A stretch of 64,000 bases of DNA from an uncultured Candidatus Poseidoniales archaeon. Its GTDB lineage: Archaea; Thermoplasmatota; Poseidoniia; Poseidoniales; Thalassarchaeaceae. Shown here one piece after another: positions 28,646 through 56,715 of the stretch. The stretch spans positions 19,316 through 83,315 of the forward strand of contig CACJKA010000001.1 of the NCBI GenBank assembly GCA_902593945.1, in the 5' to 3' direction. The position numbers and the translations under genes were made by a program. The notes under the pieces were generated by a model. It was not told the origin of the DNA and made no database searches. It worked only from the letters and a program-made list of their open reading frames with translations. The stretch's first letter is position 1, and every line of letters starts with the position of its first letter.

Positions 28646-33329
<4,684 letters not shown>

Positions 33330-33375
33330 GATAGACCGTTCCGCTTAAGCCATAATCAAAACTCGGATGGACACT

Positions 33376-33462
33376 GCGGCAGTCGCATAGCCTGGCCATT
33401 GCGCTGGATTGCTAATCCAGTGGTGTTTCACCTCGGGAGTTCGAATCTCCCCTGCCGCGCCA
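33376..33462 (+). tRNA. tRNA-Ser (anticodon GCU), class II with a long variable arm, 3' CCA encoded
   Basis: I folded it by hand. The acceptor stem GCGGCAG pairs with CTGCCGC. The anticodon stem CTGGA/TCCAG carries the loop TTGCTAA, giving anticodon GCT. A variable-arm hairpin (GGTG-TTT-CACC) is present, and the T-arm is GGGAG-TTCGAAT-CTCCC. Confidence 0.8.
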
Positions 33463-33492
33463 TTAAATGATAGGAGGTTTCTTGTTAGCATC

Positions 33493-34353: not shown

Positions 34354-34389
34354 CAAAAGTATTCAACAACTACCCAACTATCGAAGAAT

Positions 34390-35583: not shown

Positions 35584-35584
35584 T

Positions 35585-37534: not shown

Positions 37535-37538
37535 TTGA

Positions 37539-40247
37539 TTACTCCATTAAGTCATAGTATTGAGAATTCTTCAGAGAATCAATCATCGCATAAAGTACTT
37601 CTTGAGACTCTCTAGGGCTAAGATTATCTGGGTCAATTGATCTTAATCTTTCTGCAATTTCTTTTAACATAGGGTCAATAATTACCTCTTCTTTGATTAT
37701 AGGTAAATTAGATTCAGAAATCTCTTCATTTACAATCACATTAGGATTTGAGTTAAGCATCCACCCGTAAATACTTGATTGCCCATCGGGCCTAGAATCG
37801 GGAGATTTGTTAGAACCTGCTTTGGCGCCCTGAGCCTGACTCTCAAGAAAAATCAGTAAATCTCTAGCTCTTTCAACTACTGAAATTGGAAGACCCGCTA
37901 ATGCTGCAACTTGTACACCGTAAGATTGATCACATGAACCCTCAGAAATAGTATGTAGGAAGCGTATTTCGCCATTAATATCTGCTACCTGAACATGGAT
38001 ATTTCTCAAATTTTCAAACTCATTTTCTAAGCCTATTAATTGGTGATAATGAGTTGCAAATAAGGTTCTTGCACCTAACCTACGACAAATATCTTCTGTA
38101 ACAGACCAAGCAATTGCCAGACCATCAAAGGTTGATGTACCTCTACCAATTTCGTCAAGGAGAATCAGACTTTTTCCAGTTGCACGCCTCAGTATATGGG
38201 CTACCTCTATCATCTCCATCATGAAAGTTGAACGCCCGCGACGTAAATCGTCGTGTGCTCCAACTCTTGTGAAAACTCTATCAATAATACCAATTTTTGC
38301 TTTTTCAGCAGGTACAAAAGAACCAGCCTGAGCTAGTATCGAAATTAATGCTGTTTGACGAAGATAGGTTGACTTCCCTCCCATATTTGGGCCAGTCAAT
38401 AACAAAAAACTTCTTTTTTCATCGATTCTAACATCATTTGGTACAAATCTGCCATCAGACTCTAGAACCGGATGCCTTCCTGAAACAATCTCAATCTTAT
38501 TTCCTGCAGTGATTTCGGGTTTACACCAAGAATTTTTCCTTCCATGAATGGCAAAGGAACAAATTACATCAGCAACTGCAATCTTTCTAGCAATCGTTGC
38601 AAGTTCTGAAGAATAATTGGATACAATGTTGCGTAAATCAATAAATAATTCTCTTTCGAGGGCTTTAGCTCTGTCATCAGCGGTCAAAATTATTTCTTCC
38701 CAAGATGCTAAATTATCAGTAGTATATCTCTCTGCATTCGTCATAGTTTGTCGGCGACGATAATGCTCTGGCACTTTATCTACATGGGATTTAGTAATCT
38801 CAATAAAGAACCCAAATTGCCTATTGTGTTTGATTTTTAAATTTGGAATGTCTAATTTCTCCCTCTCTTGAGATTCAAATTTCTTCAACCAATCGGTTCC
38901 TTCACCTGCTTTTTCTCTAAGATCGTCTAATTTCTTATCAACTCCAAATCTAAATATCCCTCCGTCCCTAATTGTTGCGGGTGGCTCATCTACTATCTTT
39001 TCAGAGATTAAATCATTAATTTCGGATAAATTATCTAATCCTATAGATGATTGATGTAAAAGTTCTGAATTACCTTCACTAAGAAGTGATTGTATTTTTT
39101 TCATACGGCCGAGGCATTCTGAAATTGCAACTAAATCTCTAGCATTAGCTCTACCATATGCCAAACGGGTTGAGAGTCTTTCTAAATCTCTCATAGATTT
39201 TAGTGACTCACGAATTGAATCAAGCCTTCTAGGGGCTTTGAATAAACTACTTACTGCTGAGTGCCTTAAACTAATTTCCTCTTTATTTGTCAATGGCCTC
39301 ATAATCCACTCTTTGAGTAACCTTCTACCCATCCAAGTCCTTGTCGAATCAATGGATTGTAATAGCGAACCTTGTTTTTCGCCGACTAAAGTATGGCTTA
39401 ACTCTAAATTTCTCAGCGTAGTTTGATCGAGAACTAAATGCCCATCGTCCGCATCAAAGTGAAGTTCACGAAGAGGAACTGTGTCAATTAAATGTAAATT
39501 TGATATGTATCTAGCAGCGAGTCCGCATGCTTGTAATGCTAAAGGTTTAGAGTCTAAATCGACACTTCCAAGATCTGAAACTTTCAAATGTTCACGCAGC
39601 GCCTGTAACATTTGTTTAGGATTTGCATCATGAACGCTAAGAATTACATCATCTAGATTAGAAATAAGCGATAAAATAGAGTCTGAAGATGCATCCTTCT
39701 TTGATACAACTAATTCACTTGGAGACCACCTCTGAATCTCATCTTTAATCCTCTCCCATCGCCCTGCTCCTGATTGCTCCTGAATCCAGGAACGACCCGT
39801 GGATGAATCTAAAATAGCCATGCCAACTATATCGTCTTTAACAGATAATGATGCTAAAATACTTGAGCCATCTTCTCCAATTAGATTCTCTTCATATAAT
39901 GAGCCAGGAGTGTACACTCTAGTAACTACTCTTTCAAGAATTTTAGAACCAGGACGTAATTCTTCTTCTTGTTCACACATTGTAACTTTGTGGCCAGCCC
40001 GTAACATTGACTGTAGATATGACTCTACAGAATGCCAAGGAACACCCGCCATTGGCACTGGATTTTCAGAATTCTTATCACGGCTTGTCAAAGTTATACC
40101 AAGAACTTCTGATGCTAAAACAGCATCATCATAGAACATCTCATAAAAATCGCCCATTCTAAAAAATAGCACGGTATCAGGGTGCTGAGCCTTTATTTCT
40201 GCAAATTGATCTAACATTGACCTCTTCGCCATATCTAATACATCCAA
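37539..40247 (-). CDS. mutS: DNA mismatch repair protein MutS
   Basis: The N-terminal mismatch-binding region (FYEMFYDDA) and the ABC ATPase motifs (GPNMGGKST, DEIGRGTSTFDG) are present. The product is 902 aa and lies directly upstream of mutL. Confidence 0.95.
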   Translation of the reverse strand: MDVLDMAKRSMLDQFAEIKAQHPDTVLFFRMGDFYEMFYDDAVLASEVLGITLTSRDKNSENPVPMAGVPWHSVESYLQSMLRAGHKVTMCEQEEELRPGSKILERVVTRVYTPGSLYEENLIGEDGSSILASLSVKDDIVGMAILDSSTGRSWIQEQSGAGRWERIKDEIQRWSPSELVVSKKDASSDSILSLISNLDDVILSVHDANPKQMLQALREHLKVSDLGSVDLDSKPLALQACGLAARYISNLHLIDTVPLRELHFDADDGHLVLDQTTLRNLELSHTLVGEKQGSLLQSIDSTRTWMGRRLLKEWIMRPLTNKEEISLRHSAVSSLFKAPRRLDSIRESLKSMRDLERLSTRLAYGRANARDLVAISECLGRMKKIQSLLSEGNSELLHQSSIGLDNLSEINDLISEKIVDEPPATIRDGGIFRFGVDKKLDDLREKAGEGTDWLKKFESQEREKLDIPNLKIKHNRQFGFFIEITKSHVDKVPEHYRRRQTMTNAERYTTDNLASWEEIILTADDRAKALERELFIDLRNIVSNYSSELATIARKIAVADVICSFAIHGRKNSWCKPEITAGNKIEIVSGRHPVLESDGRFVPNDVRIDEKRSFLLLTGPNMGGKSTYLRQTALISILAQAGSFVPAEKAKIGIIDRVFTRVGAHDDLRRGRSTFMMEMIEVAHILRRATGKSLILLDEIGRGTSTFDGLAIAWSVTEDICRRLGARTLFATHYHQLIGLENEFENLRNIHVQVADINGEIRFLHTISEGSCDQSYGVQVAALAGLPISVVERARDLLIFLESQAQGAKAGSNKSPDSRPDGQSSIYGWMLNSNPNVIVNEEISESNLPIIKEEVIIDPMLKEIAERLRSIDPDNLSPRESQEVLYAMIDSLKNSQYYDLME

Positions 40248-43742: not shown

Positions 43743-44915
43743 ATGTCAGGATACCTCGACCGCATAGGCGCCGGGAAAGTCTTGGTAAATAGAGAACCTT
43801 TTTCTTTTGATTGGACACCAGATCACCTAGTAGGAAGAGATAGAGAACTTACTGAATTAGCCAGTTTATTCACTCATGTAGAAAACCATAACTCAAGTTG
43901 TAGAGCTGTAATTACTGGACCAGTTGGCTCAGGTAAGACAGTTCTAACAAGACGTTTCGGACATGATTTGTTAAGCCACCTTGAAGGGAAAAGGAAGGTT
44001 GTCTTAGCACATGTAAATTGTAGAAATCATCCCTCTACATCACAAGTATTGCAGCGAATTGCTTTAACCTTGGACTCTGGCCATCCTGAAAGAGGACTTA
44101 GTTCAGGAGAAATAATACAGTCAATTAGAAGGAATCTACTTTCACACAACAGTCATCTTTTATTAGTTCTTGACGAAGTTGATTTGTTAATTAGAAGAGA
44201 TAATTCGGATTTGATATACAAACTCCTCAGAATCGATGAAGGACAAGAAAAACAAGGATCTATATCATTAATCTTAGTTAGTCAAGATTCTATGCTATTG
44301 AAATTATTCGAGCCAGCCATAATATCTAGATTAGGGGCAAGTAACATTCTAAAAATGAGCCCTTATGATAAAAAAGGACTAACGGATATTGCAAGGCAAA
44401 GAGCAGATATAGCCTGCAGAAATGGTTCAATAAGTGAGAAAGTTCTAGAAAAAATAGGATTTATGGCTGCAGAATCCGGAGATGCTAGATTAGCAATTGA
44501 ACTACTTGATTCATCAATAAGAAGAGCTGAATCAGCAGGCAGAGGTGAAGTTCTGATTGAAGATATCGAACAAAGTTCGGAAAGAGTTGCTGCAATAGAG
44601 CCTAGTCAAGTGGATGTGCTATCAAAAGATCAGAAATTGATAATGCTTGGACTTTGTAGAAGATTGAAAAAGGAAGCAGAAATAAATACTGGAGATGCTG
44701 AAAAACTTTACAAAATTGTTTGTGAAGAATATGAAACTAAACCAAGAAGTTATACTACGTTTTGGAAGCATTTGAAATTTCTAGAAAATCAGGGGTTAAT
44801 TGAAACTAGAAGTAGTAAATCAAATGTCGGAAGAGGAAGAACCCAATATATAACAATGAACAAAGTAGCACCCGCAAATTTAGCAAATAGAATTGAGAAA
44901 GAATTACAAAGATGA
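43743..44915 (+). CDS. orc1: Orc1/Cdc6 replication initiator
   Basis: An AAA+ domain carries Walker A (ITGPVGSGKTV), Walker B (LLVLDEVD) and a sensor-2-like motif (GDARLAIELL). A C-terminal winged helix follows (GRGRTQYI). Confidence 0.85.
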   Translation: MSGYLDRIGAGKVLVNREPFSFDWTPDHLVGRDRELTELASLFTHVENHNSSCRAVITGPVGSGKTVLTRRFGHDLLSHLEGKRKVVLAHVNCRNHPSTSQVLQRIALTLDSGHPERGLSSGEIIQSIRRNLLSHNSHLLLVLDEVDLLIRRDNSDLIYKLLRIDEGQEKQGSISLILVSQDSMLLKLFEPAIISRLGASNILKMSPYDKKGLTDIARQRADIACRNGSISEKVLEKIGFMAAESGDARLAIELLDSSIRRAESAGRGEVLIEDIEQSSERVAAIEPSQVDVLSKDQKLIMLGLCRRLKKEAEINTGDAEKLYKIVCEEYETKPRSYTTFWKHLKFLENQGLIETRSSKSNVGRGRTQYITMNKVAPANLANRIEKELQR

Positions 44916-46713: not shown

Positions 46714-47082
46714 TTGGACTGCGTCCTAATAGACGCTTGTGGATGGGCAGCGTTAATTGATGCTGAACTAAACATAGATATCTCTATGAGTAAAATTATA
46801 GGGAAACCTAGATACCTATTATTAGAAAAGGTCAAACAAGAATTAGAATCATTATCGAAACAAAGAAAAGGACTTTTATTGAATTTATTAGATAAGAAGT
46901 CGGAATTAATCAAAGCACCTATGGGATTAAGGCATACAGACCAGATGTTACTAGAATTATCTCGAGAAAACGGATGGCCGGTATTAACAGTAGATAGAAG
47001 ATTAAAAGAGAGATTGATTAATACTGGTGGATCGTATATTGAAGTAACTTCAAAAAATGTATTAAGATTGATACAGAATTAA
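46714..47082 (+). CDS. PIN-domain-like protein (from the conserved archaeal S6e-eIF2gamma-PIN neighbourhood)
   Basis: The N-terminus (CVLIDACGW) has an acidic residue in a PIN-like strand. The conserved gene-order context is established knowledge. Confidence 0.4.
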   Translation: MDCVLIDACGWAALIDAELNIDISMSKIIGKPRYLLLEKVKQELESLSKQRKGLLLNLLDKKSELIKAPMGLRHTDQMLLELSRENGWPVLTVDRRLKERLINTGGSYIEVTSKNVLRLIQN

Positions 47083-47375
47083 GGTAAAGTAAACAATCTG
47101 TCATCTCCATGGCCATCGAGTAAACCAATTCTAACAGCAGCATCAATCCATGCATGGGCATAATTAATTGCGCCAAATGCACGTACTAGATCCCCATTAT
47201 TCATGAAGTAAAGTGCATCTTTCTGATAATCATCACACATTCTAAGCATTGCTTTAAGCCTGTTTTCATCTTCTGTATTTTTAGTAATAGAAGTTGCTTT
47301 CATTCTTGCTTCAGCGGTTAAATCGAGATATTTTTGGACTTTTTCCTTAGACACGATGTTTCCATTATCAGACAT
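47079..47375 (-). CDS. Small conserved hypothetical protein
   Basis: This 98 aa ORF has clean boundaries against its neighbours and no recognisable motif. Confidence 0.3.
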   Translation of the reverse strand: MSDNGNIVSKEKVQKYLDLTAEARMKATSITKNTEDENRLKAMLRMCDDYQKDALYFMNNGDLVRAFGAINYAHAWIDAAVRIGLLDGHGDDRLFTLP

Positions 47376-47384
47376 AATTACTCC

Positions 47385-49319
47385 TCAAAATTCATTTGCG
47401 GCCGCCTCGCTTAATTTGAATAAGCGAGTCCTGCCTTGTTTTCTAACTGATAACATGCCTGATTTCTGAAGACTGTTATATAATTGAGAAAGGCGAGGAC
47501 GGCCGACTTCTAATCTAGCCTGTAGTTCATCATCAGAGGGAGAAATTTCTCTAATTGAAGCTACTTCTAGAATCATTCTCTCAGCATCAGAGAGTGAGTA
47601 AAATCTATTCACATCCAATTCCCTATCATCTTCCCAAATTGGAGAAAATCTTGATTTTTTAGTAGGGAAATCATTAATCATAGAGGTGTCTTTCTCTTTT
47701 GGGAAGATTGGAACAGATTCTACTAATTCAACTGTATCCTGAATTTCTGGTTCTTCGAAAATAATTTCTTCAATTTCTGATTCTTGAGACATGGGTTCCT
47801 CTATAAAAGATTCATTATTTGGAAGAGAATCATTTGACGCTGATGGATTTTTTGTCATTTTTGGTACAGTAGACTGGTACGAAGGTTCAACTGACCATTC
47901 GGCTCCTTCGATGCTATCTACTATTTCATAATCAATTGACTGGATATTTTGATCCATTCTCGCTTCGGAAACTATTGGTTCATCGATTTCATTTTTATTT
48001 TTAATTTTGAACGTCTCACGGCCGACATAATTGTCTAAAGTTGATTGTGAAGGTTCTTCATCTGCATAAGTAATTGGAACATGAGGAGAAATGTCATCTT
48101 CCATACCATAAGTGGCTTTTTGTGACCTCTTTCTAAGGGATCCAAATTTCTTACTTATTGTAACGGGAGATGGTTGTGGCATTCTCTCAGGGGGTTCGGT
48201 ACCAGGTGACATGAACAATTCTGTCTCATCAGGGATATTGTCTTCTTCTATTGTATTAGTTTCTTCATCAATTAAGTCATTTTTAATTTCGGAGAAATTA
48301 TCTTGCCATATTGGCTTTTCCTCATCGGTTATTTCATCATCTTCTTCAGAGAAGTTATCAATTAATAAAGGGGTTTCTTCGTCATCAAAATCCCGCAAAT
48401 CTGATGGTTCCTCATCAATCAATTCGTCGTTCTCAAGTTCGTTATCAATAATTTCGGAGACAGGAATATTAGGTTCATAATTATCATTACTAATATTGTT
48501 TTCAGCATAGACTTTTTCATCAATAACAGGCGTCTTTAGCGCTTGGAAAGACATGAGATTTTCCAGCGTTCCTTGATATCCAAGATCTCTCTTTTCATCC
48601 ACTAAACACTTCAGAATTCTTATAGTATCTCTAGGATTACCTCCTGTTCTTTCGTGTATTGAATTAAGAATCATTGGATTAATAATCCACTTCTCCTTAG
48701 ATTTGAGCCTCATCCGGTTATTCACCATTTCTTGTATCTCAATTTTTGTGAAATTATCTAACCTATCTGGTTCATCAAAAAGGTTTCTCATTTCTTCGTT
48801 AAGTTCTAAATACTGAGATTCGGTCAAACTTACAATTACCATTGTTCGAAGTCTAGAGAGAATTGGGCAGATTCTAGATAAGAAAGAATTTATTTCGATT
48901 ATTTGAGGAGGGTAATCTAAAGCTATAATTGGTAAAGGCCCTTTATCTTCATCGAACAAAGAAATTAGTTTCTGAGATAATTGATTCATTGTACTTATTG
49001 ATTGGAATGTTCCGAAATGGGTTAATATTTCATGTAGTACTAACTTTGCTTGATCGCCCTCTTCAGATAAAAACTGACCAATATATTTTTTTGGAGTTTG
49101 GGAAGAAATCGCATTGATCATTGAAGTCCTACCTGAGCCGGATTCGCCAACTAATAGAATCATCCTAGGTGAGCCAGAAAGAATATGTTCTCTCCATCGA
49201 TGGAGTATTTCTTTTCGTCCGACTAAATCATGAGCTCTTGATGATTCAATGGGGCGGTTGTCAAAAGGATTTCCTCGTAAAGCAGGTAAGTCGATCAAAC
49301 TGGCCCCACCACCGTACAT
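47385..49319 (-). CDS. Divergent Orc1/Cdc6-like AAA+ protein with an acidic disordered insert of about 300 aa and a C-terminal winged helix
   Basis: The N-terminal AAA+ domain has a variant P-loop (LLVGESGSGRTS), Walker B (IIALDYP) and a sensor-2-like motif (ERTGGNPRDTIRILK). Residues about 290-560 are extremely D/E-rich low-complexity sequence. The C-terminal wH-like segment is LSQLYNSLQKSGMLSVRKQGRTRLFKL. Confidence 0.55.
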   Translation of the reverse strand: MYGGGASLIDLPALRGNPFDNRPIESSRAHDLVGRKEILHRWREHILSGSPRMILLVGESGSGRTSMINAISSQTPKKYIGQFLSEEGDQAKLVLHEILTHFGTFQSISTMNQLSQKLISLFDEDKGPLPIIALDYPPQIIEINSFLSRICPILSRLRTMVIVSLTESQYLELNEEMRNLFDEPDRLDNFTKIEIQEMVNNRMRLKSKEKWIINPMILNSIHERTGGNPRDTIRILKCLVDEKRDLGYQGTLENLMSFQALKTPVIDEKVYAENNISNDNYEPNIPVSEIIDNELENDELIDEEPSDLRDFDDEETPLLIDNFSEEDDEITDEEKPIWQDNFSEIKNDLIDEETNTIEEDNIPDETELFMSPGTEPPERMPQPSPVTISKKFGSLRKRSQKATYGMEDDISPHVPITYADEEPSQSTLDNYVGRETFKIKNKNEIDEPIVSEARMDQNIQSIDYEIVDSIEGAEWSVEPSYQSTVPKMTKNPSASNDSLPNNESFIEEPMSQESEIEEIIFEEPEIQDTVELVESVPIFPKEKDTSMINDFPTKKSRFSPIWEDDRELDVNRFYSLSDAERMILEVASIREISPSDDELQARLEVGRPRLSQLYNSLQKSGMLSVRKQGRTRLFKLSEAAANEF

Positions 49320-49381
49320 ATGTGCCGGTAAGTATACTAGTTCATAATATTCACGCTTAATTACGCATGAAAAACGTTTTG

Positions 49382-49515
49382 TTAACGCTTTTTATCGACT
49401 ACTGAATTAAAAAACACAATTAAAATGCCAAAAATAGTACTTTAAGCCTATTTTATTAACGCTTTATTAACGCTTATTTAATGCGTTAACGATGCGTTAA
49501 CGACATAATTAACGC
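49382..49515. repeat. Array of TTAACGC/GCGTTAA repeats with 11-bp phased tandem units in an AT-rich intergenic region
   Basis: TTAACGC occurs at 49382-88, 49456-62, 49467-73 and 49509-15. GCGTTAA occurs at 49483-89 and 49494-00. There are 11-bp tandem units TTTATTAACGC x2 (49452-49473) and ATGCGTTAACG x2 (49481-49502). The 8-bp palindrome CGTTAACG is embedded, and degenerate copies lie at 49354-49368. Confidence 0.7.
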
Positions 49516-49667
49516 ATAAATTAGAGATAAAAATACTAAAATCCACATTATAGTAGAGAGAATATCTTAAGAAATCAAATCATAGAAGGTCATCTAATAA
49601 TATCAAGAAACATAAATAATCAGCAGATTCAGGAATTTTAAAGCAAAGACATTACAAACGATATGTC

Positions 49668-50981
49668 TTGGCAAAGAATGGTGAAGACATGCCAGTAGAC
49701 AACAGTCGATTGAAAGGATTTTACAAACTATCAGTACCAGAAAGAAGAGAGCATTTAGCACAACTTGCTGGGTTAACGCCCGAACAAGTAAATGCTTGGG
49801 CCGATGCAGAGTTATCAGAAGATGCTGCAGATAGAATGATTGAGAACGTTGTTGGTAGGTATTCGTTGCCAATTGGAGTGGCTACGAACTTCATAATTGA
49901 TGGAGAACATTACTTGATTCCTTTCGTAGTAGAAGAAGCAAGTGTAGTAGCTGCTGCATCAAACATGGCCAAAAGATGTCAATCGAAAGGAGGATTCACA
50001 TCAGACAATACTGATCCGATTATGATAGGGCAGATACAAATTGTAAATTGTGCTGACCCTGAAGCTTCAAAGAAATCTATCTTATCTTCTAAAGATGAAT
50101 TGATACAGTTGTGCAATGATGTCGACCCCATATTAGTTAAATTTGGAGGAGGGTGTAAAGATGTCGAAGTTAGGATTATCGAAACTATGTCAGGGCCGAT
50201 GGTGATTGTCCACATATTAGTAGACTGTAGAGATGCGATGGGTGCTAATGCTGTCAATACTATGGCAGAAACTATTGCCCCGAAAATAGAGTCATTATCG
50301 GGAGGTACTGTTATTCTCAGAATAATTAGTAATCTTGCAGTCCATAGGCTGGCTAGAGTTAGTGCAACATTTACTCCAGAAGAGATGTCCGACAATGGAG
50401 ATGCAAAACAAGGCTCTGAAGTAATAGATGGAGTGATACAAGCATACCATTTTGCTGCTGCAGATCCTTTCAGAGCGACTACACACAACAAAGGGATCAT
50501 GAATGCTATTTCACCTATAGCAATAGCATGTGGACAAGATTGGAGAGCTATTGAGTCCGGTGCACATTCATACTGCGCTCACGAAAAACAATACACATCA
50601 ATGACTCATTGGGAAAAAGATGAACAAGGAAACCTAGTAGGCAGTATAGAATGCCCGATGGCGGTCGGATTAGTTGGTGGAGCTGTAAGGATACATCCAG
50701 GAGCCCAAACTAATGTTGCACTCTTGGGAATAAAAAGTGCTGACGATTTAGCTAAAGTAATGGCGGCTGCAGGTATGGCGCAAAATCTAGGCGCGTTAAG
50801 AGCATTAGCAACTGTTGGAATACAGGCAGGACATATGAAACTACATTTGAAGAATATGATTAGTTCCGCTGGTGCAAAAGATAATGAAATTGATTTAGTA
50901 GCTAACATGGTGAAAGAAAGTGGTGAAAGAATTACAATGGCAGCTGTAGAAGATGCCCTGAAAACTATCAGAAATGAATAA
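49668..50981 (+). CDS. hmgA: Hydroxymethylglutaryl-CoA reductase (class I, NADPH)
   Basis: The motifs ENVVG, DAMGANAVNTM and GTVGG-like (GLVGGAV) are present, and the length is 437 aa. The ORF track start is a TTG at 49668; an in-frame ATG at 49689 (MPVDNS) is the more probable start. Confidence 0.9.
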   Translation: MAKNGEDMPVDNSRLKGFYKLSVPERREHLAQLAGLTPEQVNAWADAELSEDAADRMIENVVGRYSLPIGVATNFIIDGEHYLIPFVVEEASVVAAASNMAKRCQSKGGFTSDNTDPIMIGQIQIVNCADPEASKKSILSSKDELIQLCNDVDPILVKFGGGCKDVEVRIIETMSGPMVIVHILVDCRDAMGANAVNTMAETIAPKIESLSGGTVILRIISNLAVHRLARVSATFTPEEMSDNGDAKQGSEVIDGVIQAYHFAAADPFRATTHNKGIMNAISPIAIACGQDWRAIESGAHSYCAHEKQYTSMTHWEKDEQGNLVGSIECPMAVGLVGGAVRIHPGAQTNVALLGIKSADDLAKVMAAAGMAQNLGALRALATVGIQAGHMKLHLKNMISSAGAKDNEIDLVANMVKESGERITMAAVEDALKTIRNE

Positions 50982-50985
50982 AATT

Positions 50986-51597
50986 TTATTCATCTAAGTT
51001 ATTTATTTCATCTTCTCCGGTGAATTCAGTTATCGACATCTGTTCATCCGGGGCTAAAGAGGCTGCTAATTGGGCGCTTGTTAGACCTGCCTTTGCTGCT
51101 TCGGAACGAAACCATGTACGTACTGCACGGTAATCCACTTCTGGACAACCAAAATACTCAGCGAATCTTCTCGTAGTGGTAAGACGCCTTGTTAAACCAT
51201 CCCTACGCCGGTCAATTAAGCCTAAGTTTGCTAAATCTCTGACATGATCATAGGCTCTCTGACCTAACATTTCAACTAATTGAGACTGAGCCATTGGTTG
51301 ATGGTAAGCAATTAATGCAGCTGCTGGAAGAAGTCTTTGAGGAGTGTCTGGACGGAATGATTCGGGCAAAAATGGAGAAAGATTTGGGCGTACTTCGAAA
51401 ATCCAACGTCCAGAAACTTCTGTTAATTGTAATGCTGAATCTTGTCTTCTCTTTATTCTAGATTGTAATTCTTCTAAAGAAGATTGTACCTCTTCAATCG
51501 ATTTATCGACTGTCTGAGAAAGTTCATCAGTAGACATTGAACGACCCGAAGTAAACATTATTGCTTCAAGAATTACCGAAAGACTTGCCTCATTCAT
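50986..51597 (-). CDS. scpB: Segregation and condensation protein B
   Basis: Two winged-helix repeats are present (LEAIMFTSGRSMSTDELS, LIAYHQPMAQSQLVEMLG). The gene is adjacent to scpA. Confidence 0.8.
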   Translation of the reverse strand: MNEASLSVILEAIMFTSGRSMSTDELSQTVDKSIEEVQSSLEELQSRIKRRQDSALQLTEVSGRWIFEVRPNLSPFLPESFRPDTPQRLLPAAALIAYHQPMAQSQLVEMLGQRAYDHVRDLANLGLIDRRRDGLTRRLTTTRRFAEYFGCPEVDYRAVRTWFRSEAAKAGLTSAQLAASLAPDEQMSITEFTGEDEINNLDE

Positions 51598-52594
51598 TGA
51601 ATAATAAGCCCCCTGGAATTTTAGACTTAGGATTTATTCTGTTTGTTAAAGTAGAGAAATCATCGTCATCTAAGTGGAGATTTTTTAGAGATATATTTCC
51701 TTCATTGTCCTGAGATACCTCTGCATAACCTCTGTGTGTGAGGAACAAAGAAGAAACTAATGCTGTAACTTGCGCTTCTGATTCTGCCTCTTCCCGACTT
51801 ATTCCTGACCTGACCGAATTTTCTCTGAGAATATCCACTATTTCACTAAGATCTGTCGATTCTTTAGAAATTGTGCGGCTACGTAAAGCATCCCATGTTC
51901 TTTTGAGATCATCTTCGAGATTCTCAATATGCAAACTCCCTCCAAATCTCGCTCTTGCTTTCTCATTCGCCTCTCGCCGTTCTTTAGCGATTTGTTCCCT
52001 CATTCTTTGCTCTTCTGAGAGTCTACCTGCTGCTTGGAGACCCATTAAAAGTTCGCCTAAAGTAACTGGCCTCCCTTCTTCACGATGAATTCTGCCTTCA
52101 AACATACTGGGAAGTACTTCATCAGCTGCGCCAGTAAGTACTCCTACTGAGAAATTATAGTCCTCATCGGAAAACTCACTCTCCCATGTTTCTTCAAACT
52201 CCCATGTGTCGTTAATTTCTTCTTCGATGAGAGATCTTTCTTGCCTCTCAATAAGTGAACTTGCCTGGCCTCTGAGTATTGACCAGGCCATACGTACCAA
52301 ACGCCCACATGTTGGCAAATCAATATTTTCTGAATTATTTATTCTCTCTGTAAATAAATCTAAGAATACGGATAAATCAACATCCCATGGGTCTAAATCA
52401 CTATTTTGAAATAATTGAAAAACCAGTGCCACTGAACGATCGAATGGATCAATAAGAAATTGATGTTCTGCTTCTTCTACTCTCGATAATTCTACTAATC
52501 TATCGAGATAACGATTTGTTTCGAGATCTGTGTCACCTCCAAGCAATCGAGAAACTATATCATCCCTCATTGTAGAACCATCAAAAACAGACAA
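51590..52594 (-). CDS. scpA: Segregation and condensation protein A (kleisin)
   Basis: The N-terminal ScpA motif pattern is present (FDRSVALVFQLFQNSDLDPWDVDLS), and a C-terminal winged helix follows. The gene sits between smc and scpB. Confidence 0.75.
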   Translation of the reverse strand: MSVFDGSTMRDDIVSRLLGGDTDLETNRYLDRLVELSRVEEAEHQFLIDPFDRSVALVFQLFQNSDLDPWDVDLSVFLDLFTERINNSENIDLPTCGRLVRMAWSILRGQASSLIERQERSLIEEEINDTWEFEETWESEFSDEDYNFSVGVLTGAADEVLPSMFEGRIHREEGRPVTLGELLMGLQAAGRLSEEQRMREQIAKERREANEKARARFGGSLHIENLEDDLKRTWDALRSRTISKESTDLSEIVDILRENSVRSGISREEAESEAQVTALVSSLFLTHRGYAEVSQDNEGNISLKNLHLDDDDFSTLTNRINPKSKIPGGLLFNE

Positions 52595-52603
52595 TTAATT
52601 CCC

Positions 52604-55600
52604 TCACTCTACTTCTACTTCAGATGATTCAGACTCTTCTAAATCCTCGATAACATTCTCATCAGTGATAACTTTCTGAACGATGTTTGCCTCTCCTATA
52701 TCTTCACTCCAGTCTTCGGTCCTTTCTCTTAATGCTTCTAAATTCTTATTCTCAAGAGTCGGAGATAAATCCTCGGATTCTTCCAATTCCTCTTCAATAT
52801 CTACACCGGCTCTTTCGGCAAGTCCCCCAAGAGATTTTGGAGTTCCGAGTGGCTCGGGAACTCTGGGCATTTGGTTTGGATCGGGTAAGACTAATTCTGA
52901 ACGTTCCTCATCCGACTGTTTTCTAGCAGCTTCTTCTTTTTCTATTTCTTCACTCATTTGTAATGCAGCCGCACGATCGAAATCTGTGATTCTACGGCTA
53001 CAACCATCTCCTGCATGAGTAATCCCAATATGGTGATTCGCTAGATTTAAACTAACTTTTCTGAGAGTTACCATAATGAATTGAGCTCTTTGTGAGCGCG
53101 TTAAACAAAGGCTAGCAATTAATTCTGAATTAAACGGATCTAAATTCTGATCTACTTCGTCGAAATAATAGAATGGGCTAGGCTCATAATCTTGGATAGC
53201 AAATATCAATGCTAGAGCGGCCATAGACTTTTCTCCACCTGAAAGAAGATTTCTTCTAGTTTTACTATTCTTCCCAGGGGGAACACAATCCATCTCTAAA
53301 CCACCATCGAAAGGATTCTTCTTATTTTCCAATCTTAAACTGCCAATCCCACCGGGTTGTAATCTCTCGTAGACTCTACTGAAATTTTTATTTACATGAT
53401 CGAATACTAACAACAATCTCTTCTTCCTCTCAGATTCTAGTTTCTCTGCAATTCCAACAAGGTCATCTCGTCGCTGCCGTAGAATTTTTCCATCTTCTAC
53501 AAGTCCTGCTATACGTTCAACTGCGATATCATATTGTTCTATTGCTAACATATTGACATCACCGAGATGACCGAGGCGCCTTTCAAGTCCCTGCACAACT
53601 TTTTGCGCCTCGGCCACAGTGGGTAATTGGATATCTGCTGATGGAAGTTCAATATTCTCAGCTGCTAATTCGGCAACAATCTCATTCACTGCAGCCCTTT
53701 TCTGATTTATCTGTATGTTCAAATCCTCAATTCGTGAATTAAAGGTTTGGCGTTTTTGAGATTGAGTCTCTAAGGATGCCCTTAAACTGGCTCGTTCCTC
53801 TACTATAGTATCTCTTCTTTGACTTAAAATCTGTTGTTCTTCATTAAATTGTGAAGCCTGACTCTTTAAGTCTACTAGTAAATCTCTAGATTTCTGAATT
53901 GAGGTTTCAAGTTTTGTGATTTCTATTTTTGCTTCTTCTATCGATTTTTCTTTGGAATTTATCTGCCTTTCTAGTTCGGATATTCTATCTGAAAGAATCT
54001 TTAATCTAGCATTAGTACTGATTATAGAAGATTCAGAATGTAACTTAATCCTCTCGGCTTCTGTCCTAGTTTTTTCTGCGTTACGAAGAATCTGAGAAAG
54101 ATGGTCGGGAGTGTGATTTTGTAATGCCTCCGCAGCATTTGTTCTGGACTCCAAAGCTTCGAGATATTTTTTATTTACTTCGTCCGCATTAGATTTAGCT
54201 GAGTTGAATAAAGTATCAGAATCTGAAAGCTCTTTTCGCGCTGCTAATACTTTCTTTCCAATATCATCTACATCTTTCTGTGCTCTGGAAAAATCGGATT
54301 TCCATTCTCTTATTTTTACCGATTGATCGCTGTCGTCTAATCCATGAATTTGGTCTCTTAATTCTTGTTGATTAGTTCTCAATTCTCTTAATGCTGCTTC
54401 AACTGTAGAATAAATCAGATTTGCTTCTTCCAATGACCTCTCTAATTTTTCAGTACCTAACTGCCCATGATTCCCTCCACCAAAACTTGGTCTCGATGAA
54501 CCTACAGGAGAGCCTCCGGTCATTGCCCCTGAACCTTCTATGACATCTCCTTTCAGAGTAACCATTCTTGCACCGCCCATATTCTTTCTAGCTATATCCA
54601 TTGATTGAACAATCAAAGTATTCCTTGATGCGTATCTTACTGCAATATCAATCTCAGAATCATATTCTAACAAGTCATGAGCAAAACCCAAAACTCCTGA
54701 ATTCTGAGAAACAATTAGAGTTCTACCCTGAGGTCTTGAAACGCTTAATTTGTTCAAAGGAAGGAAGGTGGCACGGCCTCCGCCATTGAGTCTTAGCCAT
54801 TTTATACATTCTGCCGCAACCTCATCATTAGTTACAACTATACTCCTAAGGCCATTTCCTAATGCTATGGCTAATGCATCTTCATGAATTGATTCTTTAG
54901 GTGAACATAACTCACCCAAGGTCCCAAGAATTCCTTTGATTTCGCCACTTTGTCTCAACTTGGAAAGGGCGGCGATTGTTATTGCAGATCCCGGCCGGTT
55001 TGCTTTTGCTTCTTGGCGCGCTCTGGCCTTGGCCAATGCGACTTCGGCATCTCTAGCCTTAATCTCACACCTATCTCTGTCTTCTCTTAACTCAATTTCT
55101 TGCTTAGTTAATCTTTGCAACTCATTAGCTAAATGTGTTCGATCAATGGTCTCGCCACCATTCTGGATATCTTCGCCCAATAACTCTAAATCATCTCTAG
55201 TAAGAGTTGCCTGTTCATATTCTTCTTCTAGATCTGCTAATTTCTCAGAAGAAATCTGAGCGTTTTGTTCTGCCCTATCTGATTCTAACTTAGCATCAGA
55301 ATAATCTTGATGAGTTTTTGTCACTAATTCTGTGGCTTGACCCAATGCACGATTCAAATCACGGCCAAGTCGATCACCCGATTGTATCGCTTCTCTGGCT
55401 TGAGTCTCATCGATTGCTGCTTTTTCTAAATCTTCTTCGGATTTAGATAAATTTATTTCGGCACTCTCGAGTTCTTGAAGCGCACTATCGTGAGCATCTT
55501 TAACTCCAAGATGATCTTCCCTTATTATCTCAATATCTTGAGTGGTTGATTCGATAATTTTAGATTGGTCGCCGATTCTATCAGTGTTGGTTTCGACATC

Positions 55601-56536
55601 AATTTCGTGCTTACGAATCGTTTCAAGTAATTCTTTAGCATCACCACTCATTATATCATCCAAATCATCTCCAATTTGGACAAGTTCCTCGTCATATTTC
55701 CCTAATTCAATATTTCCATCTCTTATTTGCCCCGTCAAATCATTAACTTGACGGCTATAATTAGAACGCTCCTCACCGAGTAAACGGACTTCATCTATTC
55801 TGTTCCTATGCCTTGACTGGTGTAAAATAATTTTATTAGCATCTAATTCTTCTTTGATATCTTTGAACTTCAAAGCTTGCTGTCTTTCTTTTTCAAGGCC
55901 TTTGAGGCGTTTTTTCTGTTCGTCTTCAAAAAGATCGATAGTTTCTATATTATTTTCAACAACTTTTCTCTGATTATTGGCACGACGAATCTCATCATCA
56001 TATGCAGTAACTCCTGCAACTTCTTCTAAAACGCCTCTCCTTTTATGCGGCGTCATAGTAGCTAGGGTAGTTACATCACCTTGCAAAACAATATTGTATC
56101 CGTCACCATGTAAACCTGCTTCTGCCAGAACTCTTCTCATTTCTGTAGCAGTAGAAGGATTGCCGTTAATGTAATATGAAGAAATAGTGTCATTCTTTCG
56201 ATTCAATCGAACTGAACGTGTAAATGAGACTTCTTCAGTTTCGATTCTTAATCTGCGGCGACCATCGACTTCAGGTTCATTTTTGAAAACAAGTGTAGCT
56301 GACATATTTCTAGCTGCTTTACCTCTACCGCCACCATTGTAGATTAACTCAGAGACATTCGAAGCTCTTAATGACCTAGTGGATTTAGGGCCAAGAACAA
56401 ATTGTATTGCATCACCGCAATTAGATTTACCTGAACCATTGGGGCCGGTGATTGCGGTGAATCCTTCTTCGAAAGGAATCACTATTTCTCCACCGAAAGA
56501 TTTGAAATTTTCAAGTTCAATTCTTACTAGATGCAT
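52604..56536 (-). CDS. smc: Chromosome segregation protein SMC, with an acidic C-terminal extension
   Basis: The N-terminus has the canonical MHLVRIELENFKSF...GPNGSGKSN. The C-terminus has the signature LSGGEKSMAALAL, Walker B (YYFDEVDQNLD) and a hinge (GTLGELCSP). Long coiled coils are present. I place the start at MHLVRI (56536); the longest ORF reaches 56593. About 120 aa of acidic tail follow the H-loop. Confidence 0.9.
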   Translation of the reverse strand: MHLVRIELENFKSFGGEIVIPFEEGFTAITGPNGSGKSNCGDAIQFVLGPKSTRSLRASNVSELIYNGGGRGKAARNMSATLVFKNEPEVDGRRRLRIETEEVSFTRSVRLNRKNDTISSYYINGNPSTATEMRRVLAEAGLHGDGYNIVLQGDVTTLATMTPHKRRGVLEEVAGVTAYDDEIRRANNQRKVVENNIETIDLFEDEQKKRLKGLEKERQQALKFKDIKEELDANKIILHQSRHRNRIDEVRLLGEERSNYSRQVNDLTGQIRDGNIELGKYDEELVQIGDDLDDIMSGDAKELLETIRKHEIDVETNTDRIGDQSKIIESTTQDIEIIREDHLGVKDAHDSALQELESAEINLSKSEEDLEKAAIDETQAREAIQSGDRLGRDLNRALGQATELVTKTHQDYSDAKLESDRAEQNAQISSEKLADLEEEYEQATLTRDDLELLGEDIQNGGETIDRTHLANELQRLTKQEIELREDRDRCEIKARDAEVALAKARARQEAKANRPGSAITIAALSKLRQSGEIKGILGTLGELCSPKESIHEDALAIALGNGLRSIVVTNDEVAAECIKWLRLNGGGRATFLPLNKLSVSRPQGRTLIVSQNSGVLGFAHDLLEYDSEIDIAVRYASRNTLIVQSMDIARKNMGGARMVTLKGDVIEGSGAMTGGSPVGSSRPSFGGGNHGQLGTEKLERSLEEANLIYSTVEAALRELRTNQQELRDQIHGLDDSDQSVKIREWKSDFSRAQKDVDDIGKKVLAARKELSDSDTLFNSAKSNADEVNKKYLEALESRTNAAEALQNHTPDHLSQILRNAEKTRTEAERIKLHSESSIISTNARLKILSDRISELERQINSKEKSIEEAKIEITKLETSIQKSRDLLVDLKSQASQFNEEQQILSQRRDTIVEERASLRASLETQSQKRQTFNSRIEDLNIQINQKRAAVNEIVAELAAENIELPSADIQLPTVAEAQKVVQGLERRLGHLGDVNMLAIEQYDIAVERIAGLVEDGKILRQRRDDLVGIAEKLESERKKRLLLVFDHVNKNFSRVYERLQPGGIGSLRLENKKNPFDGGLEMDCVPPGKNSKTRRNLLSGGEKSMAALALIFAIQDYEPSPFYYFDEVDQNLDPFNSELIASLCLTRSQRAQFIMVTLRKVSLNLANHHIGITHAGDGCSRRITDFDRAAALQMSEEIEKEEAARKQSDEERSELVLPDPNQMPRVPEPLGTPKSLGGLAERAGVDIEEELEESEDLSPTLENKNLEALRERTEDWSEDIGEANIVQKVITDENVIEDLEESESSEVEVE

Positions 56537-56715
56537 CCCATCACCGTGTAATATCAGCAATTTATCGCCGACATCATTAATCGGCTGCTGCATTTTACTC
56601 TATGAACCTTGAGGAGGACTGGGGCGCTATACCACGAAAAAACAACCTATTTTTCAAAGCCAAAAATGATTTCCAATAAGCGAAGATTCATTGACAACTA
56701 GGTCATGGAAGTAAC

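What the first reader, a model, noticed from the sequence alone, without database searches (positions are those of the whole stretch)
49320..49667. Candidate replication origin or operator: phased TTAACGC repeats in an AT-rich 350-bp gap
The 348-bp gap between the divergent Orc1/Cdc6-like gene and hmgA is very AT-rich. It carries at least six exact copies of TTAACGC in both orientations. These are organised as two back-to-back 11-bp tandem duplications (TTTATTAACGC x2, ATGCGTTAACG x2), so that is about one helical turn per unit. The embedded palindrome CGTTAACG and degenerate copies near 49354-49368 add to the pattern. An A-rich, potentially easily melted stretch (49400-49450) flanks the repeats. 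This arrangement of repeated initiator-box-like elements plus a DUE beside an Orc1/Cdc6-family gene is the classic archaeal oriC layout, although these boxes are shorter than characterised ORBs. The alternative reading is an operator array for a repeat-binding regulator controlling hmgA or the divergent AAA+ gene.
Basis: partly seen in the sequence, partly recalled or inferred. Interest (0 to 1): 0.8.

Follow-up and report, generated by a model that had tools for sequence, protein, structure and literature searches.

The report
Conserved box array upstream of Orc-like regulator
The repeats are real: they form a fixed eight-box DNA platform found in about 80 species of the marine archaeal order Poseidoniales, in front of a lineage-specific Orc/Cdc6-shaped DNA-binding protein, and it looks more like that gene's own control region than a replication origin, although an origin is not excluded.

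Summary
Six exact TTAACGC boxes lie within 134 bp, against about 3 expected in the whole 64 kb. Two degenerate boxes lie next to the gene start.

The array is not local noise. In 78 of 80 Poseidoniales species (locus GC 34-63%) the same boxes sit upstream of the orthologous 644-aa gene. Their order, orientation and spacing are nearly invariant: 15, 11, 16, 11, then about 77 bp. The array ends 37-39 nt before the start codon, at a TATA-like element. The distance to hmgA varies from 70 to 230 bp.

No canonical ORB is present. Strand asymmetry at fourfold-degenerate codon sites keeps the same polarity on both sides of the array across about 74 kb.

My best reading, at about 0.5, is a cooperative autoregulatory operator platform for this protein. 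An origin gets about 0.2 and a chromosome-organisation site about 0.1. I found no description of the element in the literature I searched.

The parts
49509..49515 (-). Box 1 (GCGTTAA read on the strand of the 644-aa gene); outermost box, on the hmgA side
   Evidence: Exact match. Found at about -162 from the promoter element in most of 79 loci. Spacing from box 1 to box 2 is 15 bp in 70 of 71 loci.
49494..49500 (-). Box 2 (TTAACGC on the gene strand); opposite orientation to box 1; part of the ATGCGTTAACG tandem
   Evidence: Spacing from box 2 to box 3 is 11 bp in 66 of 71 loci.
49483..49489 (-). Box 3 (TTAACGC on the gene strand)
   Evidence: Forms the inverted pair TTAACGC-N9-GCGTTAA with box 4. 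Spacing from box 3 to box 4 is 16 bp in 58 of 72 loci.
49467..49473 (-). Box 4 (GCGTTAA on the gene strand; GCGTTAG in many relatives)
49456..49462 (-). Box 5 (GCGTTAA on the gene strand), followed by TAAT
   Evidence: Spacing from box 4 to box 5 is 11 bp in 54 of 54 loci.
49389..49455 (.). Spacer between box 5 and box 6. Its length is constrained and it is AT-rich, but its sequence varies. It holds a semi-conserved yACTG (AGTAC on the plus strand at 49436-49440).
   Evidence: GC is 0.22 here. The spacer averages 17 points below locus GC and about 10 below the other intergenic flank across the loci analysed (79 at most). Start-to-start distance from box 5 to box 6 is 72-78 bp in most loci, most often 77-78.
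49382..49388 (-). Box 6 (GCGTTAA on the gene strand), promoter-proximal
   Evidence: Found at -32 +/- 1 from the promoter element in most loci.
49360..49366 (-). Box 7, degenerate (GCGTAAT on the gene strand)
   Evidence: Consensus AagCGT.Ag in 77 species.
49350..49356 (-). Box 8, degenerate (GCGTGAA on the gene strand); sits where a BRE would be, directly against the TATA-like element
   Evidence: gCGTGAAtaTTA is at least 90% conserved per column in 77 species. It lies 37-39 nt before the ATG in 69 of 69 loci.
49343..49349 (-). TATA-like element (TATTATG on the gene strand), -31 to -24 from the ATG. This implies a leaderless or very short-leader mRNA. Inferred, not shown.
   Evidence: Position and conservation. 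No Shine-Dalgarno-like sequence lies before the ATG.
47385..49319 (-). 644-aa protein: initiator-clade AAA+ domain (aa 25-260; Walker A GSGRT, Walker B DY), disordered acidic linker (aa 263-556), C-terminal ArsR-like winged helix (aa 565-644). It is the presumed binder of the boxes.
47079..47375 (-). DUF357 gene, 9 nt downstream of the 644-aa gene; probably co-transcribed with it
   Evidence: Synteny is conserved in nearly all loci.
49689..50981 (+). hmgA (class II HMG-CoA reductase), divergent neighbour; start corrected to ATG 49689
49640..49659 (+). hmgA's own conserved promoter-like element (AAAGCAAAGACATTACAAAC); not in register with the box array
   Evidence: It sits at a fixed distance from the hmgA ATG in all loci. 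The distance from the hmgA ATG to box 1 varies from 70 to 230 bp.

Best explanation
The gap holds a single, order-wide conserved nucleoprotein platform of about 175 bp. It belongs to the 644-aa gene rather than to hmgA.

Layout. Eight TTAACGC-type boxes are arranged as follows, read on the gene strand: one box, then two boxes in the opposite orientation, then two in the first orientation, with spacings of 15, 11, 16 and 11 bp. Next comes an AT-rich spacer of about seven helical turns. Then come one box and two degenerate boxes; the last of these abuts the TATA-like element of a leaderless promoter.

Proposed mechanism. The gene's own product recognises the boxes one monomer per box, through its invariant C-terminal winged helix. 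Monomers on boxes 11 bp apart lie on one face of the DNA and bind cooperatively. The degenerate initiator-type AAA+ domains, tethered by the long acidic linker, hold the upstream cluster and the promoter-proximal boxes together across the bendable AT-rich spacer. Occupancy of boxes 7 and 8 at the BRE/TATA position then sets transcription of the gene itself, and probably of DUF357: an autoregulatory switch.

Shown: the boxes, their conservation, their geometry and register to the start codon, the protein's domain folds, and the co-conservation of recognition helix and box.

Inferred: that this protein is the binder, the promoter assignment, the cooperativity and looping, and the sign of regulation.
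For: - Box sequence, orientation and spacing are nearly invariant in 78 species spanning both families of the order, at locus GC 34-63%. The neighbouring protein has diverged to about 35% identity over the same range.
- The array is in fixed register with the gene. The promoter element lies 37-39 nt from the ATG in 69 of 69 loci, and the boxes sit at -162, -147, -136, -120, -109 and -32, each +/- 3. The distance to hmgA varies from 70 to 230 bp, and hmgA has its own conserved promoter-like element.
- Degenerate box 8 (always GCGTGAA, never GCGTTAA) sits exactly where a BRE would be, next to a TATA-like TATTATG.
- The winged helix is the most conserved part of the protein. Its R-x-R-L-S-Q-x-x-N core is invariant even in distant members (about 30-39% identity over the C-terminal ~90 residues compared), whose upstream regions still carry TTAACGC boxes in a different layout.
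- Sequence models place the C-terminus with ArsR/BigR/HlyU-type autoregulators.
- There is precedent for an Orc1/Cdc6-type AAA+ winged-helix protein acting as a transcription regulator: Sulfolobus Orc1-2 (PMC6061795, PMC9738581).
- The origin-specific tests failed. There is no ORB and no strand-asymmetry switch. Walker A reads GRT and Walker B reads DY.
Against: - There are no binding or expression data, and the organism is uncultured.
- Eight boxes plus a length-constrained AT-rich spacer is more elaborate than most autoregulatory operators and resembles initiator platforms.
- The AAA+ fold is closest to DNA-loading or initiator ATPases (MuB, Cdc6/Orc1, TnsC).
- The locus lies in a chromosome-maintenance neighbourhood: orc1, smc-scpAB, gyrAB, mutSL.
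- I found no other target sites in 64 kb plus about 1 Mb of syntenic DNA. A protein this conserved would then regulate only itself, unless its real role lies elsewhere.
- The promoter assignment rests on position and conservation only.
Confidence: 0.5

Rival explanations
1. Replication origin, main or accessory. The boxes would be lineage-specific origin recognition elements bound by the 644-aa Orc-like protein, alone or with the canonical Orc1 4.4 kb away. The AT-rich spacer would be the unwinding element. The promoter-proximal boxes would give initiator autoregulation, as at dnaA and at many orc1 genes.
For: - The protein has an initiator-clade AAA+ fold plus a winged helix.
- Boxes are phased at 11 bp in opposed orientations, as in DnaA-box arrays (established knowledge).
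- The spacer is AT-rich and its length is fixed; GC is 0.19-0.21 even in genomes of 50% GC.
- The array is the only conserved repeated non-coding element near orc1, which is always 4-8 kb away.
- No canonical ORB is found anywhere in the region, so a non-canonical element would be needed if the origin is nearby.
- In related Methanomassiliicoccales the origin lies in a region with orc1 and the ATP synthase operon (PMC4153887).
Against: - The orientation-independent strand asymmetry at fourfold-degenerate sites has the same sign on both sides. AT4: left r = +0.090 +/- 0.015, right r = +0.168 +/- 0.025. GC4: +0.099 and +0.116. A model with a switch at 49.5 kb fits no better than the null, residual sum of squares 143 against 145, while the no-switch model gives 58.5.
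- Most genes on both sides point towards the array, so they would be head-on to forks leaving it.
- The inverted pairs are only 9 bp apart and do not flank the AT-rich spacer, which is bounded by same-orientation boxes.
- In GC-rich genomes the spacer is 43-51% GC.
- Walker A lysine is replaced by arginine and Walker B lacks the catalytic glutamate.
- The protein matches no Orc1/Cdc6 sequence model.
Confidence: 0.2
2. Chromosome-organisation site: a centromere-like site or an SMC-loading site. The protein would nucleate on the box array and spread or bridge DNA, like ParB at parS or the filament-forming MuB and TnsC. It would serve the adjacent SMC-ScpAB condensin or segregation.
For: - The order smc-scpA-scpB-hmgA-array-gene is conserved in nearly all loci.
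- The long acidic disordered linker carries conserved short motifs.
- A single array is seen in all the DNA examined.
Against: - Synteny is high across the whole region in this order, so adjacency to smc carries little information.
- There is no similarity to ParB, SegB or any known loader.
- The register to the promoter is not explained by this role.
- There is nothing that could be tested in silico.
Confidence: 0.1
3. Operator through which the winged-helix protein, or another factor, controls hmgA, the rate-limiting step of isoprenoid lipid synthesis. This would be the classical divergent regulator-target pair.
For: - The divergent arrangement hmgA / 644-aa gene is conserved across the order.
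- In the lineages with the shortest gap, box 1 lies about 25 nt upstream of the hmgA promoter-like element.
Against: - The distance from the array to the hmgA ATG and to its promoter-like element varies from 70 to 230 bp (sd 44). The distance to the other gene is fixed.
- No box overlaps the hmgA promoter-like element.
Confidence: 0.1

Closest known systems
Archaeal oriC with ORB / mini-ORB elements bound by Orc1/Cdc6 (Sulfolobus oriC1, Pyrococcus oriC, Aeropyrum ori1; consensus CTTCCAGTGGAAACGAAAGGGGT, quoted in PMC4153887)
   Same: - Repeated polar boxes in both orientations.
- An AT-rich stretch.
- Position beside a gene for an AAA+ winged-helix protein of the initiator fold.
- Boxes reaching into that gene's promoter.
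   Different: - The box sequence is unrelated to ORB and much shorter, with a 7-bp core.
- The inverted pairs do not flank the AT-rich stretch.
- The canonical orc1 is 4.4 kb away with 66-80 bp flanks.
- There is no strand-asymmetry switch.
- The adjacent protein fails the Orc1/Cdc6 sequence models and has degenerate Walker motifs.
Sulfolobus/Saccharolobus Orc1-2, an Orc1/Cdc6 paralogue that acts as a transcription regulator of the DNA damage response (PMC6061795, PMC9738581)
   Same: It is a protein with an AAA+ domain, initiator-specific motif and winged helix that is used for promoter binding rather than for initiation. This is the best functional analogy for the favoured reading.
   Different: - Orc1-2 is a bona fide Orc1/Cdc6 family member.
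- It binds a short motif in many promoters, that is, a regulon.
- Here the protein is outside the family by sequence, carries a 300-aa disordered insert, and only one site cluster is known.
Bacterial DnaA-box arrays at oriC and at the dnaA promoter (established knowledge)
   Same: - An AAA+ initiator-clade protein with a C-terminal helix-turn-helix domain.
- Arrays of short polar boxes at 11-bp phasing in two opposed orientations.
- Autoregulation through boxes at its own promoter.
   Different: - Different domain of life, with no sequence relationship.
- The DnaA ATPase is active.
- In DnaA the DNA-binding domain is rigidly coupled to the AAA+ domain; here it is tethered by a long disordered linker.
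ArsR/SmtB-type winged-helix autoregulators (BigR, HlyU)
   Same: - They are the best sequence matches of the C-terminal domain.
- Autoregulation from an operator in a divergent intergenic region is typical of them.
   Different: - Those are proteins of about 100 aa that bind as dimers to one or two imperfect palindromes.
- Here the domain is the tail of a 644-aa AAA+ protein and faces eight polar boxes.
- All the matches are far below the family cut-offs.
Iterons of plasmids and phages with their Rep proteins
   Same: Directly repeated short boxes about one helical turn apart, next to the gene of the binding protein, serve both replication and autorepression. Phage and metagenome contigs with TTAACGC at 11-bp spacing exist (L289, L086).
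   Different: - The locus here is chromosomal, in conserved synteny in every species, and shows no mobile-element or defence signature.
- There is no Rep-type protein.

Membership tests
Orc1/Cdc6 family (for the 644-aa protein) | Match to the family sequence models (TIGR02928, PRK00411, Pfam Cdc6_C / AAA_22-type Orc1 signatures) | tested here: not met
   - Pfam gives only AAA_16 at 27.7 bits, below the 32.6 cut-off.
- NCBIfam gives no Orc1 model, whereas the gene at 43743-44915 scores 228.8 bits on TIGR02928.
- A family profile against PDB hits Sso Cdc6-1 at E = 0.39, over the P-loop only.
- The profile against 1.84 billion proteins gives only 195 hits.
- hhalign against the Poseidoniales Orc1 alignment gives 49.7% probability over 45 columns.
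Orc1/Cdc6 family (for the 644-aa protein) | Initiator-clade AAA+ fold with an extra helix between beta2 and beta3 (initiator-specific motif), plus a lid domain | tested here: met
   - The AF2 model is confident for aa 25-260 and has two helices (90-102, 111-123) between beta2 and beta3.
- The top Foldseek hits are Cdc6 and ORC.
- The fold is shared with MuB, TnsC and STAND ATPases, so it does not establish family membership.
Orc1/Cdc6 family (for the 644-aa protein) | Functional Walker A (GxxGxGKT) and Walker B (hhhhDE) | tested here: not met
   G58, G61, G63, R64, T65 and S66 are invariant, so Arg replaces Lys. D135-Y136 is invariant (D-V in distant members).
Orc1/Cdc6 family (for the 644-aa protein) | Winged-helix domain of Cdc6_C type directly following the lid | tested here: not met
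   The winged helix is separated from the lid by about 300 disordered residues. By sequence it resembles ArsR/BigR/HlyU. hhalign against the Orc1 winged-helix region gives 0.2% probability.
Archaeal oriC | ORB / mini-ORB consensus elements | tested here: not met
   TCCANNGGAAA with up to 1 mismatch gives 17 hits against 24 expected. TTCCAGTGGAAA with up to 2 mismatches gives 107 hits in 1.03 Mb against about 77 expected, with no intergenic pairs.
Archaeal oriC | Inverted recognition elements flanking an AT-rich unwinding element | tested here: inconclusive
   An AT-rich spacer of fixed length exists. It is bounded by boxes of the same orientation, and the inverted pairs are 9 bp apart.
Archaeal oriC | Switch of strand compositional asymmetry at the site | tested here: not met
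   Skew at fourfold-degenerate sites, corrected for gene orientation, has the same polarity on both sides over about 74 kb. This holds only if the asymmetry is replicative, and I could not read whole genomes.
Archaeal oriC | Initiation of replication shown by marker frequency, 2D gels or autonomous replication | not testable with these tools
   The order is uncultured and no such data turned up in the literature.
Autoregulatory operator of a winged-helix regulator | Binding sites overlap, or lie in fixed register with, the regulator gene's core promoter | tested here: met
   Boxes 7 and 8 abut the TATA-like element, which lies 37-39 nt from the ATG in 69 of 69 loci. The promoter itself is inferred.
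Autoregulatory operator of a winged-helix regulator | The regulator binds the sites and changes transcription | not testable with these tools
   The only evidence is indirect: the recognition helix and the box core are co-conserved, including in distant members with a rearranged layout.

The most novel reading that the evidence does not exclude
Poseidoniales may have replaced the canonical ORB/Orc1-1 origin module with a lineage-specific one. In that case the TTAACGC array would be the chromosomal origin, or a centromere-like loading site. It would be recognised by a degenerate Orc-shaped AAA+ protein whose DNA-binding domain hangs on a 300-residue acidic tether. The skew signal I measured would then have a non-replicative cause.
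Probability: 0.2. Interest if true: 0.85.

Novelty: new variant of a known kind. Interest (0 to 1): 0.6.

Why it matters
Poseidoniales (Marine Group II) are among the most abundant archaea in the surface ocean and have never been cultured. Almost nothing is known about their gene regulation or chromosome biology.

This element is a rare case of non-coding DNA conserved base for base, and turn for turn, across a whole order despite a GC range of about 30 points. It is paired with an undescribed, universally present protein that combines an initiator-type AAA+ fold, a long acidic disordered tether and a winged helix.

It gives a concrete, cloneable protein-DNA pair for biochemistry: EMSA, footprinting and cryo-EM. 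That work would settle whether this is a new kind of origin or centromere module, or another example of an Orc-like protein repurposed as a transcription switch.

The analysis also suggests that the canonical orc1 of this genome is not next to a strand-asymmetry switch. That bears on how origins are predicted in uncultured archaea.

Tried and rejected
- Chance or simple repeat: rejected by shuffles and by conservation.
- Canonical ORB near orc1 or anywhere in the window or loci: none found.
- Raw GC skew follows the coding strand, so I replaced it with orientation-corrected skew at fourfold-degenerate sites. My first two runs had hmgA two bases out of frame.
- The same contrast across 47 genomes, using only the flanking syntenic genes, was dominated by gene-specific effects and is inconclusive.
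Only 3 of 120 hits were Poseidoniales arrays. It therefore could not test whether the array is unique in the genome. The same scan of viral contigs found no Poseidoniales virus arrays.
- Dense TTAACGC arrays on other contigs look like transposon ends or phage iterons and are unrelated.
- Rfam found nothing in the gap.
- Defence-system and phage libraries gave only generic P-loop hits.
- Literature searches for a Poseidoniales origin, for the motif and for the protein found nothing relevant.
- A general leaderless-promoter pattern could not be established from the window's other genes; some have Shine-Dalgarno-like leaders.
Full report
**1. What is in the sequence**

The gap lies between the 644-aa gene (47385-49319, minus strand) and hmgA. 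It contains six exact TTAACGC heptamers within 134 bp: plus strand at 49382, 49456, 49467 and 49509; minus strand at 49483 and 49494. The whole 64-kb window holds ten, against 3.1 expected from shuffles, and no shuffle reached ten.

Two degenerate boxes, TTCACGC at 49350-49356 and ATTACGC at 49360-49366, lie next to the gene start. The gap has GC 0.29 against 0.376 for the window, and the stretch 49389-49455 has GC 0.22. Paired boxes allowing up to three mismatches occur only in this gap, apart from two three-mismatch hits (16583 and 53082) at the level expected by chance.

Two details need correcting. First, hmgA starts at ATG 49689, so the gap is 369 bp. Second, the canonical Orc1/Cdc6 is a different gene at 43743-44915 (TIGR02928, 228.8 bits).

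**2. Conservation**

The 644-aa protein defines a family whose named members are all Poseidoniales. A pattern scan of one genome per species returned 80 loci from both families of the order, with locus GC from 34 to 63%.

In 78 of them, 2-6 exact boxes lie within 500 bp upstream of the orthologue, and almost none lie elsewhere in the roughly 14-kb locus. The layout is the same everywhere. Read on the gene strand it is: aaaaaGCGTTAAtt - N - TTAACGC - N4 - TTAACGCat - N - aaaGCGTTA(A/G) - N4 - GCGTTAAt - about 70 nt - GCGTTAAtt - N - aaGCGTaAg.atGCGTGAAtaTTAtGaAct - about 25 nt - ATG.

Measured from the promoter-proximal element, the boxes sit at -162, -147, -136, -120, -109 and -32, each +/- 3, in 79 sequences. 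The start-to-start spacings are:

| Interval | Spacing | Loci |
|---|---|---|
| box 1 to 2 | 15 bp | 70 of 71 |
| box 2 to 3 | 11 bp | 66 of 71 |
| box 3 to 4 | 16 bp | 58 of 72 |
| box 4 to 5 | 11 bp | 54 of 54 |
| box 5 to 6 | 72-78 bp, most often 77-78 | most loci |

A low-GC subgroup carries four tandem boxes on the same 11-bp lattice.

The promoter-proximal element lies 37-39 nt before the start codon in 69 of 69 loci. The distance from box 1 to the hmgA ATG ranges from 70 to 230 bp. hmgA also has its own conserved promoter-like element at a fixed distance from its ATG. The array therefore belongs, geometrically, to the 644-aa gene.

The spacer between boxes 5 and 6 varies in sequence, but its length is constrained and it is AT-rich. 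It averages 17 points below locus GC and about 10 points below the other intergenic flank. It reaches GC 0.19-0.21 in genomes of 50% GC, but 0.43-0.51 in genomes of 57-60% GC.

**3. The neighbouring protein**

Sequence models see only a sub-threshold AAA_16 match and weak ArsR/BigR/HlyU-type matches at the C-terminus.

An AlphaFold2 model built from 36 family members is confident for residues 25-260 and 565-644. It is disordered for residues 263-556, which are acidic.

- Foldseek puts Cdc6, ORC and archaeal Orc1 first, but NB-ARC, RFC and RuvB are close behind.
- Two helices lie between beta2 and beta3, as in the initiator-specific motif.

The N-terminal domain is thus an initiator-clade AAA+ module. 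Membership of the Orc1/Cdc6 family is not supported:

- A family profile finds only 195 proteins among 1.84 billion representatives, and no flood of Orc1 hits.
- hhalign against the Poseidoniales Orc1 alignment gives 49.7% probability over 45 columns.
- Walker A reads GSGRT, with Arg in place of Lys, invariant across the family.
- Walker B reads D-Y, or D-V in distant members.

The winged helix is the most conserved part of the protein. Two distant members lie in the same synteny, and their upstream regions again carry TTAACGC boxes, in a different arrangement. The recognition-helix core R-x-R-L-S-Q-x-x-N is unchanged in them. This co-conservation is the best, though still indirect, evidence that this protein reads these boxes.

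**4. Tests of the origin reading**

(a) Canonical ORB elements are absent from the window and from about 1 Mb of syntenic DNA. The consensus I searched for is quoted in PMC4153887.

(b) The canonical orc1 lies 4.4 kb away, with flanking gaps of 80 and 66 bp that hold no repeats. It is closest to P. aerophilum Cdc6. This agrees with the placement of Marine Group II in the Orc1-2 cluster by Raymann et al. (PMC3914693).

(c) Raw GC skew simply follows the coding strand. I therefore modelled the skew at fourfold-degenerate third codon positions as a gene term plus a term for the absolute strand. The data were 46 genes of the window plus 11 genes from a 10-kb extension beyond its right end.

| Measure | Whole region, r | Left of array, r | Right of array, r |
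|---|---|---|---|
| AT4 | +0.107 +/- 0.012 | +0.090 +/- 0.015 | +0.168 +/- 0.025 (permutation p = 0.002) |
| GC4 | +0.103 +/- 0.024 | +0.099 +/- 0.029 | +0.116 +/- 0.062 |

There is a strong orientation-independent asymmetry, and its sign is the same on both sides of the array. A model with a polarity switch at 49.5 kb fits no better than the null (residual sum of squares 143 against 145). The no-switch model gives 58.5. Gene by gene, the plus strand is A-rich in 30 of 37 genes on the left and 8 of 9 on the right. If this asymmetry is replicative, which is the usual cause, the whole 74 kb lies in one replichore, and neither the array nor orc1 sits at an origin.

(d) Most genes on both sides point towards the array.

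(e) The inverted box pairs are 9 bp apart and do not flank the AT-rich spacer.

Points in favour of an origin are the protein fold, the AT-rich fixed spacer, the 11-bp phased opposed arrays, and the neighbourhood of gyrB/gyrA, mutL/mutS, orc1 and smc-scpAB. In related Methanomassiliicoccales the predicted origin lies in a region with orc1 and the ATP synthase operon, which is about 13 kb away here. I could not read whole genomes, so the origin reading is weakened but not refuted.

**5. Most likely mechanism**

I favour a cooperative operator platform for the gene's own product. Monomers would dock one per polar box through the winged helix, and 11-bp pairs would put neighbours on one face of the DNA. 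The AAA+ domains may bind nucleotide but are probably not active ATPases. Hanging on the long acidic tethers, they would join the upstream five-box cluster to the promoter-proximal boxes across about seven helical turns of bendable AT-rich DNA.

The last box is always GCGTGAA. It occupies the BRE position directly next to the TATA-like TATTATG, 31-24 nt before the ATG. Occupancy there would compete with, or recruit, TFB and TBP at a leaderless promoter.

Shown: the anatomy, the geometry, the conservation and the folds. Inferred: the identity of the binder, the promoter, the looping and the direction of control. The precedent is Sulfolobus Orc1-2, an Orc1/Cdc6 protein that works as a transcription regulator (PMC6061795, PMC9738581).

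I put this reading at about 0.5, an origin at about 0.2, a centromere-like or SMC-loading site at about 0.1, and control of hmgA at about 0.1.

**6. Novelty**

The full-text searches I ran returned no paper describing a Poseidoniales origin, this motif or this protein. Source annotations call the protein only an 'ArsR family' or 'winged helix-turn-helix' regulator. I class the finding as a new variant of a known kind: an initiator-shaped AAA+ winged-helix protein with a phased box array at its own promoter. The unusual features are the 300-residue tether, the degenerate Walker motifs, and order-wide invariance of an eight-box geometry.

Noticed in passing
window 1-64000 plus L201:1-10000: An orientation-independent strand asymmetry at fourfold-degenerate codon positions (plus strand richer in A and G, r about 0.10) runs unbroken over about 74 kb. 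The region includes the canonical orc1 at 43743-44915, so orc1 is apparently not next to a polarity switch in this genome.
   Followed up: partly
window 49640-49659 (and the equivalent position in L001-L080): hmgA has its own conserved upstream element at a fixed distance from its ATG. It reads AAAGCAAAGACATTACAAAC here and cgCAAAnaGTTAGAAGCC in Thalassarchaeaceae, about -48 to -30 from the ATG. It is probably the hmgA BRE/TATA. It shares an rTTAnrA core with the TATA-like element of the 644-aa gene.
   Followed up: partly
window 47385-49319 (aa 263-556 of the protein): The disordered acidic linker carries short motifs that are conserved in many or most members of the order (DEEPxDLWD, ETELFMxPGTEPP, FGGLRKR, EGAEWxVEPS, FxPxWExD). 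One motif, Q[SP]TLDx[YF]V, is found only in Poseidoniaceae and resembles a PCNA-interacting peptide.
   Followed up: no
L324:3600-3670 and L325:1030-1095: Distant family members (about 30-39% identity over the C-terminal ~90 residues compared) keep the same synteny and have an extra gene of about 350 aa between the AAA+ gene and DUF357. They also keep TTAACGC boxes upstream, but in a compact, different layout.
   Followed up: partly
window 28646-40247, 43743-44915, 50986-56593: The window is a chromosome-maintenance neighbourhood: gyrB, gyrA, mutL, mutS, orc1, scpB, a probable scpA, and smc. RmuC (1630-2868) and thymidylate kinase (19463-20806) lie further left.
   Followed up: no
L112, L113, L132, L152, L160, L179, L087 (metagenome contigs); L289, L086: Unrelated contigs carry dense TTAACGC arrays. 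One set is always next to 'agagctgtcgaa' and looks like subterminal repeats of a DNA transposon. A phage contig (L289) has TTAACGCattt x3, and a metagenome contig (L086) has an iteron-like array. The same heptamer has apparently been adopted independently as a protein-binding repeat.
   Followed up: no
window 46714-47082 and 47079-47375: A PIN_9-domain gene and a DUF357 gene converge tail to tail with a 4-bp overlap directly downstream of the 644-aa gene. This arrangement is conserved across the order.
   Followed up: no
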